This document shows positions 13,290 to 54,617 of a DNA stretch of 64,000 nt, piece by piece. Numbering within the stretch: the stretch's first letter is position 1; the number at the start of each line of letters is the position of its first letter. The notes beneath the pieces were generated by a model. That model was given only the letters and a program-made list of their open reading frames with translations, was not told the DNA's origin and made no database searches. The stretch is from Octopus vulgaris (taxonomy: Eukaryota). The DNA lies in NCBI GenBank assembly GCA_951406725.2, contig OX597821.1, positions 52,824,001-52,888,000 of the forward strand, given 5' to 3'. The position numbers were made by a program, and so were the translations under genes.

Positions 13290-13804
13290 ATAATATATAT
13301 AAAAACATTAACGAAGGAAGATGCACACACTTTACATAATTTTAATATATTTTTTAATATATTTTATATTGTGTTTGTCGACCAGTTTCGCTTTCGCTAA
13401 TCATGACATTAAAATCATTTTAATTACGTATTCTATTATGATAAATTTGTTTCTCCATGTAGCATGTGGAGCTAATGAATGAATGATTTAACAAGTGTAA
13501 AAATTGAAGGGGAGGTAATTGGTGGCTGTTATGGTTGTGAACAGGGAAATAATTGCTCATCTTCGGTAGGGGGGATATAAATACACAAAAATTCAAAAGC
13601 TAGAGTAGGTGTAGAAATATATACGGTATGTAATCGTGAATTAAAATATGTATAGAGATCAAAGTTGGTTATGCGTGCATATTTAGTTGTGTTCTGTATT
13701 TTTCGGTCAATACATTTTCTTCATTTAAACGTTCTTGTGTAGAAATTATATCTTTGCGCTGGTAGAAGTAGAAAACTGTGAAATTTAGTTTGATGTTACC
13801 TGCA

Positions 13805-13848
<44 letters not shown>

Positions 13849-14975
13849 GTTAAATTAAAGTAATCCCTCTGTATTGCGGGAACAGATCTGCTCATTATGT
13901 AGAGTGGTTCTCCATCTCAACGTCATACTCATTTGTCCTTTGTATTTGTGTTCACAACCCGAGCAAGTTACTCCATAAATTAGATTCTCAGAGACACAAA
14001 TGAAGCTGGTTTTTATTGTTAATCTCTCTCCTTGTTTGAAAAGAAAATCCGAGCCTTCAAGTAGATTGGGGCATGTTCCACAGTTTGGGCGTCTACATTT
14101 TTTAACCGTTGGTTTCGTGGTGGTTGTGTAATGCTTCGCCTTTGTCAGGAGTCTCTTTGTGTTGCTTTTAGCATTTGATGAATTTATGCCTTTTCAGGAT
14201 GTTGTTCATTTTTGGGTCTCTAGTTAGTAAAGGAAGATTGTACACAGTAGTTTTGTATGCCTGATTGTTTCTAGGGTTGTAAGTTGATATATACAGTAGT
14301 GTTTTGAGATGAAGTGTGGTGTTATGTTTTGTTGTCCTCAGTGTTTTTATGTCTAATTTTTTGGCACGCTTAATTCCATCGTCTATAAGTGAGAGTGGAT
14401 ACTGTCTTTCGGTTAGTGTTGTTCTGAGTACTTGGAGACGCGGGTCCCAAGTAGTTCTTATACACTATTGTGTAAATCATTTTTGCCAAATTGAAGGGAA
14501 TATTTATTTTGATTTTTTTCGTTTACATAAAGAAACATTATTCAACGAAAAATACAGAACACGTCTAAATATGCACACATAACCAGCTTTGATCTTTATA
14601 CATATTTTTATTCAGGATCAGCTACCTACCACTGTACATATTTCTCCACATTACTCTTGCTTTTGAATTTTTGTGTAAATATATATTCCCACCACCACCA
14701 CTGAAAGATGAACAACCATATCCCCTGCCCACAATAATAACAATCACCAATTGCCTCCTCTTAGATTTTTATACTTGTTGAATCATTCATTCATAAACTT
14801 CACGCACAAAGACAAGACAAACTAATTTTTCTAAATCAAATACGTAATTAAATTATTTTAATGCCATGATGAGCGACAGCTAAACCGGTCGACAAACACG
14901 ATATAAAATATATTTTGAAATATATTAAAACTATGTAAAATGTGTGCATTTTCCTTATTTAATTTCTTATGTATA
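13290..14975 (-). mobile_element. Penelope-like retroelement remnant: RT thumb/GIY-YIG endonuclease fragment with ~440-bp inverted terminal repeats
   Basis: Minus-strand 14515-13670 reads NIPFNLAK, RQYPLSLIDDGIKRAK, STYNPRN, KCRRPNCGTC, CVSENLIYGVTCSGCEHKYKGQ..MTLRWR..LH, ERLNEE...KYRTQLN. Segments 13290-13731 and 14520-14975 are diverged reverse complements of each other. Confidence 0.88.
13376..13408 (-). ncRNA. Minimal hammerhead-like motif in the Penelope terminal repeat (mirror copy at 14862-14894, +)
   Basis: TGTC ATGATTA GC-GAAA-GC GAAAC TG GTC GACA. The location in a Penelope terminal repeat agrees with the established association of minimal hammerheads with these elements. Confidence 0.6.
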
Positions 14976-16314
14976 TTTACATATGTGTGTGTGTGTTTGT
15001 ATGTGTGTACCCACATGACAGTTTCCTTTCATTTGCCATGCATCAATTCCACTCATAGGGCTTTGGTCGGCTCAACGCTTTAGTAGAAGACACGCGACCT
15101 AGGTTCTACGTACGAACTCAGAAACACAGGGGTAGGAAGCAGAGTTCTTGCTACACAACCACACCATCGCTTATGAACTAACTTCTAATCAAGATCTTTA
15201 TTCATTCAAATCCTACATTCTTTCCTGTGGTAGAGTAATATGGAAATGCAGTTCCCTTGTTATGTGAAGCCATCATAAAAAATATTAGAGTTGTAGTTTC
15301 AGTTTTACGAGAGGATTTTCAACTCAGAATTTCCTCGCTGGTAACAAAAGAATTGAGAATATATATATACATTTTGGAATGGAAGGATTTTAATTATATT
15401 ACATTGCGTGTATTCCAGCATTACGAAGGGACAAACATCGCTTACATTATTCAGATTAATAGTCTCAAAACGCTCACTCCAATTCAATTCGACATTTCAA
15501 GCATGTAGATAAAAAAAATGCATATATTCTCATTATGTTTTGTTTTAATATGAAGAAAGTATTCATCTAGAACATTCGATTCAATAATTTTTAAACATTG
15601 AAACTATGTAGATATGCTTCAATATTTCCCTTTTTTTTAAATTTCCATTTCAATATTTCATCCTCACTTTTATTTGTTTATCGCAGTGGTGACACCCGCG
15701 GGGTTATTGAAGAATATATCAAAGAAACACGAAAGTTGGAATTGCGTAACATACCTCTTAGAAACATGGAGATATGCTGGAAAACTGAAATAGCAAAAAT
15801 CGACAATAATTTGATGTTTCTTCTACTTTCAACAACTACTGATTGTTAACATCCCTTCCTCTATACATCAGCAAAAAATATTTAAGGATTGAATACACGT
15901 ATATATGCAGTATCTCGTGAATTCAAGGATATGTATCTTTAATATATATGTAATTCATGCATACATACATGATGGAAGATACGAGAATGTTTATTGATCA
16001 CTACAATTGTTTCGATGCCTCTAGCATCGATTCCTCACGGGTGGGAGAAGACATAACTGATCTAGGTTCATCCGTGAGTGTAGATGTGTCTGCTCAGGTG
16101 ATTACAAGATGTATCTCGTTGAAATAATGTGTTTTCCGCAAGATTCCTTCTGGGTGTGTGTATACAAAAGCAACACATTAAAGGATACAACTTCATTATT
16201 ATAGAAGATCAGTACTAGATATTAGACGCAAAAAGAAACAAATACACAATACAGCGAAGAAAGTATTAGATATAACAGTTAGTAGATATGGATGTATAAA
16301 CGCCGGCGCATATG

Positions 16315-17554: not shown

Positions 17555-17940
17555 GGGGACAAACACATAAACATACACAAACATACACATACATATATAT
17601 ATATATATATATACGTCGGGATTCTTTCAGTTTCCGTCTACCAAGTCTTCTCACAAGGCTTTGGTAACCCCGAGGCTATAGTAGCAGACACTTACCCAAT
17701 GAGTCATGTAGTGGGACTGAACCTGGAACCATGCGGTTGATAAGCAAGGTACTTACCACACTGCCACTCCCGCGCCTATATATATATATGCGTTTACAAC
17801 CCCGTAACTTAGCGGTTAGGCAAAAGACACCGATAGAATAAATACTAGGCTTACGAAAATAAGTCCCGGAATTGATTTACTCGACTAAAGGCGGTACTCC
17901 AGCACGGCCGCAGTCAAATGATTGAAACAATTAAAAGAAT
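17555..17940. mobile_element. SINE family A halves in opposite orientations: 5' half on minus (17555-17777), 3' half on plus (17790-17940)
   Basis: Sequence identity with the corresponding halves of 54203-54617. The halves are separated by a short (TA)n. Confidence 0.75.
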
Positions 17941-17968
17941 AATATATCTATATATATATATATATATA

Positions 17969-39299: not shown

Positions 39300-39450
39300 G
39301 GAGAGGCTGTGTGATAAGAAGCGTGCTTCCCAACCACATGGTTCAGGGTTCAATCCGACTGCGTGGCACCTTGGGCAAGTATCTCCTACATATAGCCACC
39401 GCGGGCCGACCAACTGGTACACGGAAACTGAAAGAAGCCCGTCGTATTTC

Positions 39451-39487
<37 letters not shown>

Positions 39488-39670
39488 TTGTCGCCTACCT
39501 TCACTTGACAACCGATGTTCGTGTGTTTACGTCCCCGTAACTTACCAGTTCGGTAACAGAAACTGACAGATTATGTTCTAGGCTTACAATGAATGAGTCC
39601 TGCGGTCGAATTATTCGACAAAAGGCAGTGCTCTAGCATGGCTGCAGTAAAATGACTAAAAGAAACAAAG
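39300..39670 (+). mobile_element. SINE family A copy
   Basis: GGCTGTGTGATAAGAAGC, GGGTTCAATCC, GGCACCTTGGGCAAG, ACGGAAACTGAAAGAAGCCCGTCG, GTCCCCGTAACTT, GCATGGCTGCAG. Confidence 0.8.
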
Positions 39671-39836
39671 GAATAACTAACACCCCTAATGTCGAAGATA
39701 TACATTCCTAATGTACTAAGTTACTTATTGAATTAGTAGCGGTGGCAGTTGTCTCTACTGTATGATTCGGTACGCATATATGCATTAATGCAAATATACA
39801 CGTATACAGTTTGCATTCATACATATACACATACAT

Positions 39837-39897
<61 letters not shown>

Positions 39898-39930
39898 TAC
39901 GTATAAATATATATGTATATGTATTCGTAT

Positions 39931-40404
39931 ATATTAATAGTTATCGTCAAGCTAACAGGGCAGTCCAGAACAATAGGACGAATGCTGCCGTTGATTAGCT
40001 CCAAGAGGCCATCGCCTCTAGCTAGCTATGTGACACACAAACCAGTGTCCATTATAACCTTCGAACAGGGTAAGTCAGCAGCTTCCCCTTGCTGGTCTGG
40101 CATCCACAGACTAGTTTCTAGGTGTTTGACTCTTATCAATGTGGAGTAACCGAAACCCAGAAGGTGTCGCTGCTGACCGACTGTTCGAAGGTTTATTTAC
40201 CTAAATTCAGTGGAATACATCCACTGGTTTTCAAAAGGTAGAAATATCATTATTTCTAATTCTCTCTAAAGGAGACTACGGCAGTGGTATTGGATATTAA
40301 TAGTTATCACCAAGTTAACATGGCAGTCCAGATAAATAGGACGAATGCTGCCGTTGATTAGCTCCGAGAAGCCATCGCCTCTAGCTAGCTATGTGACACA
40401 CAAA
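39931..40404. repeat. 111-bp direct repeats (39931-40041, 40294-40404; period 363 nt) enclosing a structured, hammerhead-containing core
   Basis: ATATTAATAGTTATC...TAGGACGAATGCTGCCGTTGATTAGCTCC...GCCATCGCCTCTAGCTAGCTATGTGACACACAAA occurs twice. Confidence 0.9.
40103..40145 (-). ncRNA. Type I hammerhead ribozyme-like motif (U3-A8 variant)
   Basis: TCCACA TTGATAA GAGTCAAACACCTA GAAAC TA GTC TGTGGA: 6-bp stem I, palindromic stem III (ACTAGT), GUC cleavage triplet. The stem II closing pair is mismatched (G/A). Confidence 0.65.
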
Positions 40405-40739
40405 TCTTTTCAATGTTACATTACTTTCAAAGAATTTTCCCCGTTATACGCTGGTTTGGCTATATATAAACGTACCTAAAAAACGCTTTTCTCGTTAACC
40501 AGTTCTCCGATTTCCACAAAACATGTTTGATTTCGTTTCTGTTCACACGAGCATCCGATTTATGACGAATCCTGCTTTTGTCACTTTCCCTTTTGTTCGC
40601 CTGACGCTAAGCTAGCTCTCCGGGTGTCCAATTCCTAATCTCTCCTGCTTCGGACTCTTTCCCTCTGTTCCGCTAGACGCCCAGCACTTGCTTTATCAGT
40701 TTCATCGATCCTTCTATTCACGTGCCTGTCCCAATCTTG

Positions 40740-41225
40740 GGTAAGTATTTCGTAAAGAACCCGTTCGTACTTCGGTGTGAAATTATTTTTTCCACAGATT
40801 TTTTCGAGTGCATTCAACGTATCTCACCTCGAAACCCACCGCAAGTCACTTCCTTCTGAAAAAGAAAGTGGAGAGTGTTGTGGGGATCTTAGAGTTTTCC
40901 ACCGACAGAGTTTTGTTTCGTGAGTTCTTTTCTCTTTTCCAAGTTATTTCGCATGCTTCCAACGAATGTGACATCGAAATCACGTGTAAACGGTTCCTTT
41001 CATCAGAAAAGGAAAGAATTGGCTGCTACCTCTTGCACGTCCTGCTACCACGAAACAGTTATTTCGGGTCCTTTACCACAAATATCTGTTACGTGGTTGC
41101 AGGGCGTGCTAAGAATTGCAGCCAAATCTTTGGAGGCGAGATTCATTGAATGTACTCGAAAAACTCCTGTGGAAAAAATTATTTCACACCGAAGTTATGA
41201 ACAGATCTTTTACGAAATATTTACC
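40740..41225. repeat. ~490-bp imperfect fold-back element
   Basis: GTAAGTATTTCGTAAAG...ACTTCGGTGTGAAATTATTTTTTCCACAG...TTTTCGAGTGCATTCAA is reverse-complementary to 41145-41225. Inner pairs include TGTTTCGTG/CACGAAACA. Confidence 0.8.
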
Positions 41226-41667
41226 GTATCTTTAAGGTCATTTCCACTTCAAAATACTTTTAAAAATGCCAATAACTGTTTTTGCAATGAAGATAATTTT
41301 TAAAACGATTAAAATATTGTCTGTCAAAAGAAAGCTAAAATATAAATACTTACTGTACAAACAGCTTACATCTTTGAAATCACATTCACATAAAAATATT
41401 TCTAAATGCTTAAAATATTGTGTTTAACAAAAGCGAAAATAGAAACATTTACTGTAAGAAAAACATATTGTATATTTTGTTGGGAAAGTAAACTCAAAAT
41501 GTGTCTAATCGAAAGGTTAGAGTTTCTTCCTTTTCACGGTTAAGTTATTTTCGGAGTATTTTCCCATTATACGCCAATTTGGCTTTGTAACAGTGCAAGA
41601 CAGCACAATTGATGTTCATTTTTAATATAATGTAAATGACTATAAGTATTTGAGTGATGATATGTGA

Positions 41668-47235: not shown

Positions 47236-47597
47236 CAGGCGTGGTTTCCCAACCACATGGTTCCAGGTTCAGTCCTACTGTGTCACAGCTTGAGCATGTG
47301 TCTTCTACTATAGCTTCGGGTAGACCGGAGCCTTGAAAGCGGATTTAGTAGACGGAAGCTAAAAGAAGCCCGTCATGTGAGTGTTTGTGTGTCTATGTTT
47401 GTCCCCCACCACTGCCATACAAACGGTGTTGGTGTGTTTACGTCCCAGTAACATAGTGGTTCGGTAAAGAGACTGGTAGGGTAGCTACCAGGCATAACAG
47501 AGAAATAGTTACTGGGGTCGAGGCATTCGGCTAAAAATTCCTCAAGGCGGTGCCTCAGGATGGCCGCAGACTAATGACTGAAACGAATAAAAGATAA
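47236..47597 (+). mobile_element. SINE family A copy
   Basis: CCAACCACATGGTTCCAGGTTCAGTCC ... GTCTTCTACTATAGC ... GTTTACGTCCC ... ATGGCCGCAG ... ATGACTGAAAC, homologous to 54203-54617. Confidence 0.8.
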
Positions 47598-52597: not shown

Positions 52598-53707
52598 CAT
52601 ACATACATACATACATACATGGATGGCCATAAGCTACTTTATCCATTTCTTTATTAGTATCATAGTGGGTAAAGCGAATTATGGCCATTCCTGTATGTAT
52701 AAATAGGACGGGTTTCTTTTAGTTTCCGTCTGGCTTTGGTCGGCTGGGGCTGCAGTAAAAATCACATGCCAGATATGCCACGCAGTGAGACTGAACCTGG
52801 GTCCATTTAGATTGAAAGCGGTCTAATACATGCATACTGATATATGTGCTGGAGTATATATATTTTAATATAATCACTCAGCAGAGATAAAACTTAGAAA
52901 CTATATTGTCTAGTGAACAATCAGATAGTTTGCTAAGTTTCAAAATTCTGCGCTGCGGTAATTACGCATATTAATCGATCCCATATTTGATCGAATAAGA
53001 CTATACAGAGACAGGAAAATTTAAGTCCAACCTATAGTTATCAAAACTGCACCACACAGCTTGGAATAGATAAAATTTTGAGGGAAATAGATACTAGTAA
53101 ATAAAACAATTTTTGATTAATAAAAGATGTGGAGCGGTACTATACACAGACCTATTTAAGATTTGTATTTACCAGATCATGCTAGATTTCTGATATGATA
53201 CTTGCGTTCTTCAATACCACAGGGAGGCTTGAATATTAATTGTGACAAAATCCTACTCCATTTCAACTAGTCCTAACACGTTACTCGAAACCTGTGTATG
53301 TTAATTTAACGACGTTTAATTTCCATTCTTATATATTTGACACGCACATATATCTAAAGAAAATAATACCGGTACCATAAACATAAACAGAAAATTCCTC
53401 AGAAGCACAAAGCTATCACTTACACATGCCTTGAACACTTACGGGTATGTTTTAGAGTATATACATACACCTATATGCTACATACACATATATTACATGC
53501 ATATATGCCTGAATGAGGTCACTATTATTTACACATTTATATGTCATTAATAGATACAGCTTTTTACTTAGATTTTTATTTTAGGTTTCATTGATGAAAA
53601 ACATTCTATAGCATATCTTAAATTCTTTCATACACACACTCACACATATATAAATACATACAAATCTATATGTGTGTATTTAAATGTATATGCGTGCATG
53701 TGTATGA

Positions 53708-54202: not shown

Positions 54203-54617
54203 TACTCTTACTCTTTTACTCTTTTACTTGTTTCAGTCATTTGACTGCGGCCATGCTGGAGCACCACCTTTTAGTCGACCCCGGGACTTATTCTTTGTAA
54301 GCCCAGTACTTATTCTATCGGTCTCTTTTTGCCGAACCGCTAAGTGACGGGGACGTAAACACACCAGCATCGGTTGTCAATCAATGCTTGGGGGACAAAC
54401 ACAGACACACAAACACATACACACACATATATATATATATATATACATATATACGACAGGCTTCTTTCAGTTTCCGTCTACCAAATCCACTCACAAGGCA
54501 TTGGTCGGCCCGGGGCTATAGCAGAAGACACTTGCCCAAGATGTCACGCAGTGGAACTGAACCCGGAACCATGTGGTTGGTTAGCAAGCTACTTACCACA
54601 CAGCCACTCCTGCGCCT
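54203..54617 (-). mobile_element. Near full-length tRNA-derived SINE (family A)
   Basis: Head AGGCGCAGGAGTGGCTGTGTGG (A box) and GGTTCAGTTCC (B box), internal (TA)/(TG) tract, and (AAGAGTA)n tail. Many homologues occur in the window. Confidence 0.85.

What the first reader, a model, noticed from the sequence alone, without database searches (positions are those of the whole stretch)
39931..40404. Retrozyme-like unit: 363-nt period, terminal redundancy, nested helices and a U3-A8 hammerhead
Seen: 111-bp direct repeats 363 nt apart (about 1.3 monomers). Between them are nested complementary segments AAACCAGTG/CACTGGTTT, AACCTTCGAACAG/CTGTTCGAAGGTT and GTCAGCAGC/GCTGCTGAC. These bracket a type I hammerhead on the minus strand (40103-40145) with a 6-bp stem I, a GUC site, a palindromic stem III and a compensatory U3-A8 in place of C3-G8. 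No coding capacity is evident. Established: non-LTR retrozymes and Penelope terminal repeats are partial-tandem units of a few hundred nt with type I hammerheads, and retrozymes yield circular RNAs. Inference: this is a copy of a cephalopod retrozyme-like or non-autonomous Penelope family. This copy may be weakened by a stem II G/A mismatch.
Basis: partly seen in the sequence, partly recalled or inferred. Interest (0 to 1): 0.85.

Follow-up and report, generated by a model that had tools for sequence, protein, structure and literature searches.

The report
Octopus retrozyme with variant hammerhead ribozyme
This 474-base non-coding stretch of an octopus genome is one decayed copy of a many-copy repeat family whose members share an unusual hammerhead-type RNA motif; it is likely a "retrozyme", a small parasitic element predicted to cut and circularise its own RNA and to be copied by Penelope-type transposons, a kind already known from mussels, corals and salamanders.

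Summary
In detail: 111-bp repeats 363 nt apart (92.8% alike) bracket a minus-strand type I hammerhead motif with U3-A8. The motif alone is not beyond chance (5 of 30 shuffles hit), but public runs settle it. 3,511 and 3,040 contigs of two DNA runs lie on the laid stretch, nearly all the depth on the unit. Other copies keep the U3-A8 core, show compensatory changes in stems I and II, and have a full 4-bp stem II that has decayed in this copy. A probable RNA run holds a 396-nt contig whose ends overlap by 30 nt, i.e. a 366-nt cycle (circle or tandem transcript). Copies end at two recurrent sites 55 nt apart with mixed AT-rich flanks, and inversions occur, as Penelope-like elements leave. The host is an octopus. 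Verdict: a non-autonomous, non-LTR retrozyme family; this copy is a probably inactive 1.3-mer. The kind is known (mussel 350-390 nt), and U3-A8 is known from Schistosoma Penelope hammerheads. I found no paper on an octopus family, and Rfam misses it. Cleavage, covalent circularity and the partner element are untested.

The parts
39931..40404 (-). Whole insertion: about 1.3 monomers (partial tandem) of a 363-nt non-coding unit, hammerhead sense on the minus strand
   Evidence: summed depth falls from 1e3-8e5 inside to 18-223 in the flank 40503-40586 (table 2)
39931..40293 (-). Full monomer, 363 nt; its left end coincides with a recurrent family end (22 contigs with mixed flanks at the equivalent place 40294)
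   Evidence: table 7
40294..40404 (-). Truncated extra copy (111 nt), the terminal redundancy; 8 differences from 39931-40041
   Evidence: 5 of the 8 differences can be assigned table 3: 2 private to the left repeat, 3 to the right
40103..40145 (-). Type I hammerhead motif: 6-bp stem I, U3-A8 core, stem II decayed here (2 of 4 pairs), 6-nt loop II, GAAA, 1-bp helix III with palindromic loop, predicted cut 40109/40108
   Evidence: family variants tables 3 and 7
40056..40193 (-). Long hairpin that carries the hammerhead at its tip (helices 40056-68 x 40181-93 and 40074-82 x 40169-77)
   Evidence: pair probabilities 0.74-1.00; covariation outside the hammerhead inconclusive
40239..40293 (-). 55-nt segment between the two recurrent family ends, like the optional 'tail' of Penelope-like elements
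   Evidence: table 7: 67 contigs end at 40239 and 22 at 40294 in run X1, loose letters long and heterogeneous (agreement 0.47); concept from PMC11167929
39963..39984 (+). Hairpin with a 4-bp stem followed by GAA, shaped like helix II plus box of a hammerhead but without core or stem I; not a ribozyme as it stands
   Evidence: sequence; variant in X9 loose end
39827..39930 (.). AC and TA-rich microsatellite flank at the fixed end (insertion target); no target-site duplication found

Best explanation
This is one decayed, 1.3-unit copy of a many-copy, non-coding 363-366-nt octopus repeat with a family-wide U3-A8 hammerhead motif, likely a non-LTR retrozyme whose RNA is predicted to self-cleave and circularise and would be copied back into the genome by a Penelope-like element. 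Steps: (1) tandem or read-through transcripts of intact copies are made (RNA presence probable; the runs' RNA label is a guess). (2) The hammerheads cut after GUC, probably as dimers, because helix III is one pair plus a palindrome (inferred from axolotl and newt precedent). (3) A host ligase closes the monomer (inferred; a cyclic contig is shown, a covalent circle is not). (4) A Penelope-like RT/GIY-YIG protein nicks AT-rich DNA, starts cDNA at one of two fixed internal sites 55 nt apart and runs more than once round the template, giving partial tandems like this one (ends shown, enzyme inferred). This copy started at the second site, ran 474 nt, and has since decayed by about 4% per repeat; with one hammerhead and a broken stem II it is probably inactive.
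For: Family: 3,511 (X1) and 3,040 (X9) contigs laid on 39915-40740, with a median summed depth about 3,700 times the flank, or about 120 times if all contig overlap is discounted (the tool warns this is no copy number). Core conserved: loose ends of 19 contigs in X1, 17 in X9, 3 at an inverted junction in X1 and 1 in X18 all read the U3..A8 core (table 7). Compensation: pair 2.4-1.4 is C-G here and U-A in most copies (40105 changed in 66%, 97%, 92% and 100% of depth in X1, X9, X15, X18; the partner change is seen in those loose ends). Pair 10.2-11.2 is A-U here and G-C in the X1 loose-end majority, where stem II has 4 pairs (G-U at its base). Architecture matches the 'canonical' metazoan type I hammerhead of PMC4209133 (6-bp I, 4-bp II, short palindromic III). 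Cycle: X18 record 19, 396 nt, depth 188.5, ends at 40329 while its letters 7-30 match 40306-40329, a 30-nt overlap, hence a 366-nt cycle; a branch contig (record 18, depth 6.9) starts at the same 30-mer (tables 7, 8). Penelope footprint: two fixed ends with mixed AT-rich flanks, no TSD, a microsatellite flank, 6 of 15 listed joints on opposite strands. A decayed RT-GIY-YIG Penelope-like element lies in the same window.
Against: No cleavage or RNase R data. A cyclic contig also arises from a tandem array or its transcript, and X18 is only guessed to be RNA. Record 19's alignment stops at 40114, just before A15.1, and its next 82 letters are not shown, so the core of the dominant RNA variant is unseen and may differ. 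No autonomous partner sharing sequence was found: the element in the window has no similarity to the unit, and five motifs were absent from the Craig 2021 supplement as held. No array of two or more full hammerhead units was seen, as no genome is held. Of 8 listed variants at predicted pairs, 5 break the pair unless the partner also changes; one partner change is seen, and 83 of 123 table rows were hidden. The two fixed ends are listed for X1 only (622 loose-end rows hidden), and 55 nt is longer than the 30-40 nt tails in print. The inversion joints are single contigs at 80% likeness. In PMC11167929 hammerhead cleavage was not needed for Penelope insertion in vitro, and in the 2026 preprint 8 of 9 Xenopus dimers did not cleave.
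Confidence: 0.75

Rival explanations
1. A non-autonomous Penelope-derived repeat that spreads from linear tandem transcripts; the hammerhead is inherited and maintained but no circle is made, and the cyclic contig is a tandem array or its uncut transcript.
For: Contigs cannot tell a circle from a tandem. Hammerhead mutants did not reduce Penelope insertion in vitro (PMC11167929). 8 of 9 Xenopus retrozyme dimers did not cleave. The core of record 19 is unseen.
Against: Compensatory changes in stems I and II and retention of U1.7 and the last A of loop II point to selection on the active fold. All three animal retrozymes tested in PMC7229834 gave circles.
Confidence: 0.14
2. The terminal repeat (pLTR) of an autonomous Penelope-like element, left as a 5'-truncated remnant.
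For: Several long contigs fit only the part from the fixed end to about the hammerhead and go on unlike the unit (X18 record 18, 883 nt; X9 records 21 and 25; X1 record 3). U3-A8 was first seen in Penelope hammerheads of Schistosoma. Penelope-like elements cover 6.8% of the O. vulgaris genome.
Against: A 363-nt period needs a short template; an autonomous element would give a period of kilobases. Both junctions of the cycle are covered by many contigs, and the 366-nt cycle has no room for an ORF. Penelope pLTR hammerheads are mostly minimal, with long helix II, short helix I and an extra base after A9, none of which is seen here. An autonomous relative sharing the 3' part may still exist.
Confidence: 0.07
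3. A small LTR-type element (TRIM-like) or a tRNA-derived SINE with a locally duplicated end and a chance hammerhead motif.
For: Two direct repeats around an internal part. A Pol III A/B-box-like pair lies on the plus strand at 40142/40183. The motif alone appears in 5 of 30 shuffles.
Against: No TG..CA ends, no TSD, no tRNA; 221 of 500 shuffles give such an A/B pair; the core and compensatory pairs are family-wide.
Confidence: 0.04

Closest known systems
Metazoan non-LTR retrozymes (Cervera and de la Pena 2020, PMC7229834; parts 2-4 of 6 read, supplement not readable): coral 220-240 nt, Mytilus 350-390 nt, axolotl 330/350 nt
   Same: Non-coding unit of a few hundred nt, under 50% GC, type I hammerhead, stable fold with the ribozyme left exposed, no LTR. 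Size as in the mussel; one-pair helix III with palindromic tetraloop as in axolotl HHR_Amex1.
   Different: U3-A8 instead of C3-G8 throughout the copies seen; octopus host; circles and cleavage not shown here; long tandem arrays not seen.
Hammerheads of Penelope-like elements, including the U3-A8 variant of Schistosoma mansoni (Cervera and de la Pena 2014, PMC4209133; parts 1-2 of 4 read, 2 of 3 supplements searched)
   Same: Same U3-A8 covariation (about 1,300 hits in S. mansoni), palindromic helix III, partial tandem structure.
   Different: Those are minimal motifs (long helix II, short helix I, extra base after A9) at the ends of RT-coding elements or dispersed; this one has canonical helix lengths in a short non-coding unit.
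Penelope-like element PAc of Anolis and PLE insertion structure (Frangieh et al. 2024, PMC11167929, parts 1-2 of 4 read; Craig et al. 2021, PMC8557442, passages and section 6 read)
   Same: Two adjacent RT start sites giving two recurrent ends, AT-rich or microsatellite targets, partial tandems, inversions, no clear TSD.
   Different: No ORF; spacing of the two ends is 55 nt against 30-40 nt.
Vertebrate non-LTR retrozymes as non-autonomous PLE derivatives (Li, Clavereau, Pollet 2026, bioRxiv 10.64898/2026.07.22.740005; parts 1-3 of 5 read, supplements closed)
   Same: Solo and partial copies are common; PLE origin proposed.
   Different: 31 vertebrates, 3 insects and 1 anthozoan were sampled, no mollusc. 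By their criterion (two consecutive complete hammerheads) this locus is not an 'active' retrozyme.

Membership tests
Type I hammerhead ribozyme | Core boxes (Y3 UGAN R8 A, GAAA, UH) with the 3-8 pair kept | tested here: met
   U3-A8 pair, GAAA and UC in the window; same core in loose ends of other copies. U3-A8 is a natural, in vitro active covariation per PMC3088659 section 8.
Type I hammerhead ribozyme | Helices I, II and III, with compensatory variation | tested here: met
   Stem I 6 bp with C-G/U-A swap; stem II 4 bp in the X1 loose-end majority with A-U/G-C swap. In this copy stem II has only 2 of 4 pairs, and the forced active fold scores +1.0 against -12.5 kcal/mol for the MFE.
Type I hammerhead ribozyme | Loop I-loop II contact bases (U1.7, last A of loop II) | tested here: met
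   U40102 and A40123; role as reported in PMC11875169 passages.
Type I hammerhead ribozyme | Self-cleavage at the UH site | not testable with these tools
   Only contigs were available; they show no molecule ends.
Non-LTR retrozyme | Non-coding unit of about 150-450 nt, many genomic copies | tested here: met
   363 nt, longest ATG frame 55 aa; thousands of contigs in two DNA runs.
Non-LTR retrozyme | Tandem organisation with two or more hammerheads | tested here: inconclusive
   This locus is a 1.3-mer with one hammerhead; cyclic continuity is shown in contigs, but no genome is held to show multimers.
Non-LTR retrozyme | No LTR/PBS/PPT and no 4-bp TSD | tested here: met
   No TSD of 5-20 nt within 3 nt of the ends (4-nt TSDs were not listed by that script); no TG..CA termini; no tRNA. 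PBS/PPT were not searched specifically.
Non-LTR retrozyme | Expressed as monomeric circular RNA | tested here: inconclusive
   366-nt cyclic contig at depth 188.5 in a run guessed to be RNA; circle and tandem transcript cannot be told apart.
Autonomous Penelope-like element | ORF with telomerase-like RT and GIY-YIG endonuclease | tested here: not met
   No ORF of 100 aa or more overlaps the hammerhead monomer except a 105-aa stop-to-stop frame that runs into the microsatellite; 363-nt period.
Elements mobilised by Penelope-like RT | Partial tandems, two fixed 3' ends (tail), inversions, AT-rich targets | tested here: met
   tables 5 and 7; the two ends are listed for one run only.
Elements mobilised by Penelope-like RT | Sequence shared with the end of an autonomous partner | tested here: inconclusive
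   None with the window's own PLE fragment; no motif hit in the Craig 2021 supplement as held; genome and Repbase not available.

The most novel reading that the evidence does not exclude
The 366-nt cycle is an abundant viroid-like circular RNA of octopus that is amplified RNA-to-RNA, not just transcribed from a master locus. One sequence dominates run X18 (depth 188.5 against 6.9 for the other two contigs) although the genome holds very many diverged copies. Both strands fold about equally well (circular MFE -117 to -124 kcal/mol), and the opposite strand carries a hammerhead-shaped relic. The genomic copies would then be Penelope-made fossils of a replicating RNA.
Probability: 0.07. Interest if true: 0.85.

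Novelty: new member of a known kind. Interest (0 to 1): 0.45.

Why it matters
It extends animal retrozymes to cephalopods and shows a whole high-copy family built on the U3-A8 core, which Rfam missed here and which C3-G8 descriptors would miss. Its copies carry the two-end 'tail' footprint that was traced in vitro to Penelope reverse transcriptase. That makes it a convenient system to test the standing proposal that Penelope-like elements mobilise retrozyme circles. It may also supply an abundant circular RNA in octopus tissues. It is not a new kind of system.

Tried and rejected
Rfam: no hammerhead match at any setting. No whole genome held. No second copy in the window. Two motif scans of metagenome contigs found nothing. 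A 17-base core pattern gave 116 viral loci, 0 of 116 with both stems and no BLAST likeness, so chance. The outer nested helix is rejected. The Pol III A/B-box pair is rejected as chance (221 of 500 shuffles). tRNA/SINE origin: none found. A pair-by-pair check of 20 of the 27 listed variant places inside the unit was inconclusive: 12 unpaired, 3 keep the pair, 5 break it with partners mostly hidden (the hammerhead numbering printed in that call was off by one and is corrected). Cofolding two copies of this hammerhead did not give the dimeric active fold. A second ribozyme on the plus strand: not found by my descriptor. The Penelope fragment at 13.3-15.0 kb is not the partner by sequence. Literature: searches for hammerhead + Octopus (25 of 51 listed), ribozyme + cephalopod + Penelope, circular RNA + ribozyme + octopus, retrozyme/mollusc/Octopus and hammerhead ribozyme + Octopus showed no listing on an octopus retrozyme. 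The 2026 O. vulgaris repeat annotation has no 'ribozyme' or 'retrozyme' in text or supplement. The giant squid genome paper counts 235 Rfam hammerhead-1 hits without describing them. Lunse et al. 2017 was not held, and the supplements of PMC7229834 and of the 2026 preprint could not be seen; any of these, or Repbase/Dfam, may list this family. Earlier scan findings held nothing on this sequence or genome.

Full report
Observation. Numbering: stem I 40145-40140 with 40108-40103, six Watson-Crick pairs; U3 40139, A8 40134; GAAA 40118-40115; A15.1-U16.1 round CUAG; predicted cut 40109/40108; U1.7 and a last A in the 6-nt loop II are present. Stem II has two mismatches in this copy. The monomer folds at z -7.5, with the ribozyme at the tip of a long hairpin. 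My descriptor hits once in the window and in 5 of 30 shuffles, so the motif needed outside evidence. Rfam is silent.

Host and setting. An exon at 62806-62093 (minus) is 95% identical to residues 1-238 of an Octopus bimaculoides natriuretic peptide receptor, so the window is octopus DNA. No later exon lies in the window, so the unit probably sits in a first intron of over 62 kb, in the gene's sense (inferred). The left flank is AC/TA microsatellite; there is no TSD.

Family. No genome is held, so I used public runs. Twenty of 24 listed runs hold part of the stretch, under five organism labels and one metagenome; I laid four (39915-40740, 80% likeness). DNA runs X1 and X9 (labels A and E) gave 3,511 and 3,040 contigs. 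Summed depth in the unit is a median of about 3,700 times the flank, about 120 times if every contig overlap is discounted. The tool warns that this is no copy number; hundreds to thousands of copies is my reading. Loose ends over the ribozyme (19 contigs in X1, 17 in X9, 3 at an inverted junction in X1, 1 in X18; 22 of 644 rows shown) all keep U3 and A8. Pair 2.4-1.4 is C-G here and U-A in most copies. Stem II has four pairs in the X1 majority, with G-C where this copy has A-U. So the ribozyme fold is under selection in the family, and this copy has decayed. Of the 8 differences between the two repeats, 5 can be assigned, 2 to the left and 3 to the right, as expected if they were identical at insertion. 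JC distance per repeat is 0.038, roughly 10 million years on the scale quoted in PMC13282606 (a rough inference from 8 changes). Covariation outside the ribozyme could not be settled: 83 of 123 variant rows were hidden, and 5 of 8 listed changes at predicted pairs break the pair unless a partner also changes.

RNA. Runs X15 and X18 are guessed RNA; both have zero depth over 40475-40586, where the DNA runs have cover. X15 gave 277 varied contigs, some across the whole ribozyme (record 11). X18 gave three. Record 19 (396 nt, depth 188.5) ends at 40329, and its letters 7-30 match 40306-40329 with three differences; record 18 (depth 6.9) starts at 40300 with three differences (tables 7, 8). A 30-nt overlap of the ends is what a 366-nt cycle gives in a 31-mer assembly graph (my inference). 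This fits a circle or a tandem transcript equally. Record 19 stops aligning at 40114, one base before A15.1, and 82 letters are unseen, so its own core is not verified. Nothing shows that this particular copy is transcribed.

How it moves. In X1, 67 contigs end at 40239 and 22 at 40294 (the window copy's own left end), both with long, mixed, AT-rich loose letters. On the hammerhead strand these are 3' ends. Frangieh et al. (PMC11167929) showed that a Penelope RT starts at two adjacent internal sites after nicking AT-rich DNA, which gives the optional 'tail'; Craig et al. (PMC8557442) list partial tandems, inversions and microsatellite targets. Six of the 15 listed joints join opposite strands (59 hidden; single contigs). 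A decayed RT-GIY-YIG element with inverted ends lies at 13.3-15.0 kb but shares no sequence with the unit, so the partner is not named. The most likely course is: transcription, hammerhead cleavage (probably as dimers), ligation, then more-than-one-round reverse transcription from a fixed site, which here gave 474 nt. The family, the conserved fold, the ends and the cycle are shown; cleavage, covalent closure and the enzyme are inferred. Against a needed role for the ribozyme: it was dispensable for PAc insertion in vitro, and 8 of 9 Xenopus dimers did not cleave.

Comparison. It works like the non-LTR retrozymes of PMC7229834: mussel size, axolotl-like helix III. No defining feature failed; tandem arrays and circles remain inconclusive, so I file it as a probable member. 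It is not an autonomous Penelope element. U3-A8 is a known natural covariation (PMC3088659; PMC4209133), there in minimal Penelope hammerheads; here it is in a canonical-length one. Five literature searches and the 2026 O. vulgaris repeat paper showed no octopus retrozyme. Unseen supplements, Lunse et al. 2017 and Repbase/Dfam may hold it.

Verdict. Real, correctly read, a new member of a known kind with a known core variant. Interest 0.45, for a high-copy family that standard searches miss and that makes the Penelope-retrozyme link testable.

Noticed in passing
window 13290-14980 (ORF on minus): [quoted passage not shown] Unrelated in sequence to the finding.
   Followed up: partly
window 62806-62093 (minus): First coding exon of a receptor guanylyl cyclase (natriuretic peptide receptor type), 95% to the O. 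bimaculoides protein, followed by a GT donor; no further exon in the window, so an intron of over 62 kb is likely.
   Followed up: yes
window 40740-41225: MITE-like element with 97-bp inverted ends (84.5%) and an inner palindromic part; its left neighbourhood is also multi-copy. It lies between two related stretches, 40406-40461 and about 41530-41584.
   Followed up: no
window 39963-39984 (+): Hairpin followed by GAA (GAAA in an X9 variant) that looks like helix II plus box of a hammerhead of opposite polarity, without core or stem I; possibly a relic.
   Followed up: partly
window 40312 (table 7): 3 contigs of X1 and 1 of X15 leave the unit here, and in X1 go on with the hammerhead's start in the opposite orientation: a shared inverted junction.
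   Followed up: no
window 40008-40077 (table 5c): One X9 contig has telomere-like TTAGGG repeats put into the unit.
   Followed up: no
window 39300-39676: Dispersed repeat with copies at 17569-17942, 47246-47594, 52694-52797 and 54216-54610 (65-75% alike); from recall it resembles octopus SINEs, which was not tested.
   Followed up: no
window 40239-40258 and 40293-40308: Both recurrent family ends fall at AT-rich palindromic hairpins that share a TATTAATA-like core once the majority letters at 40248 and 40250 are counted; a candidate RT start signal.
   Followed up: no
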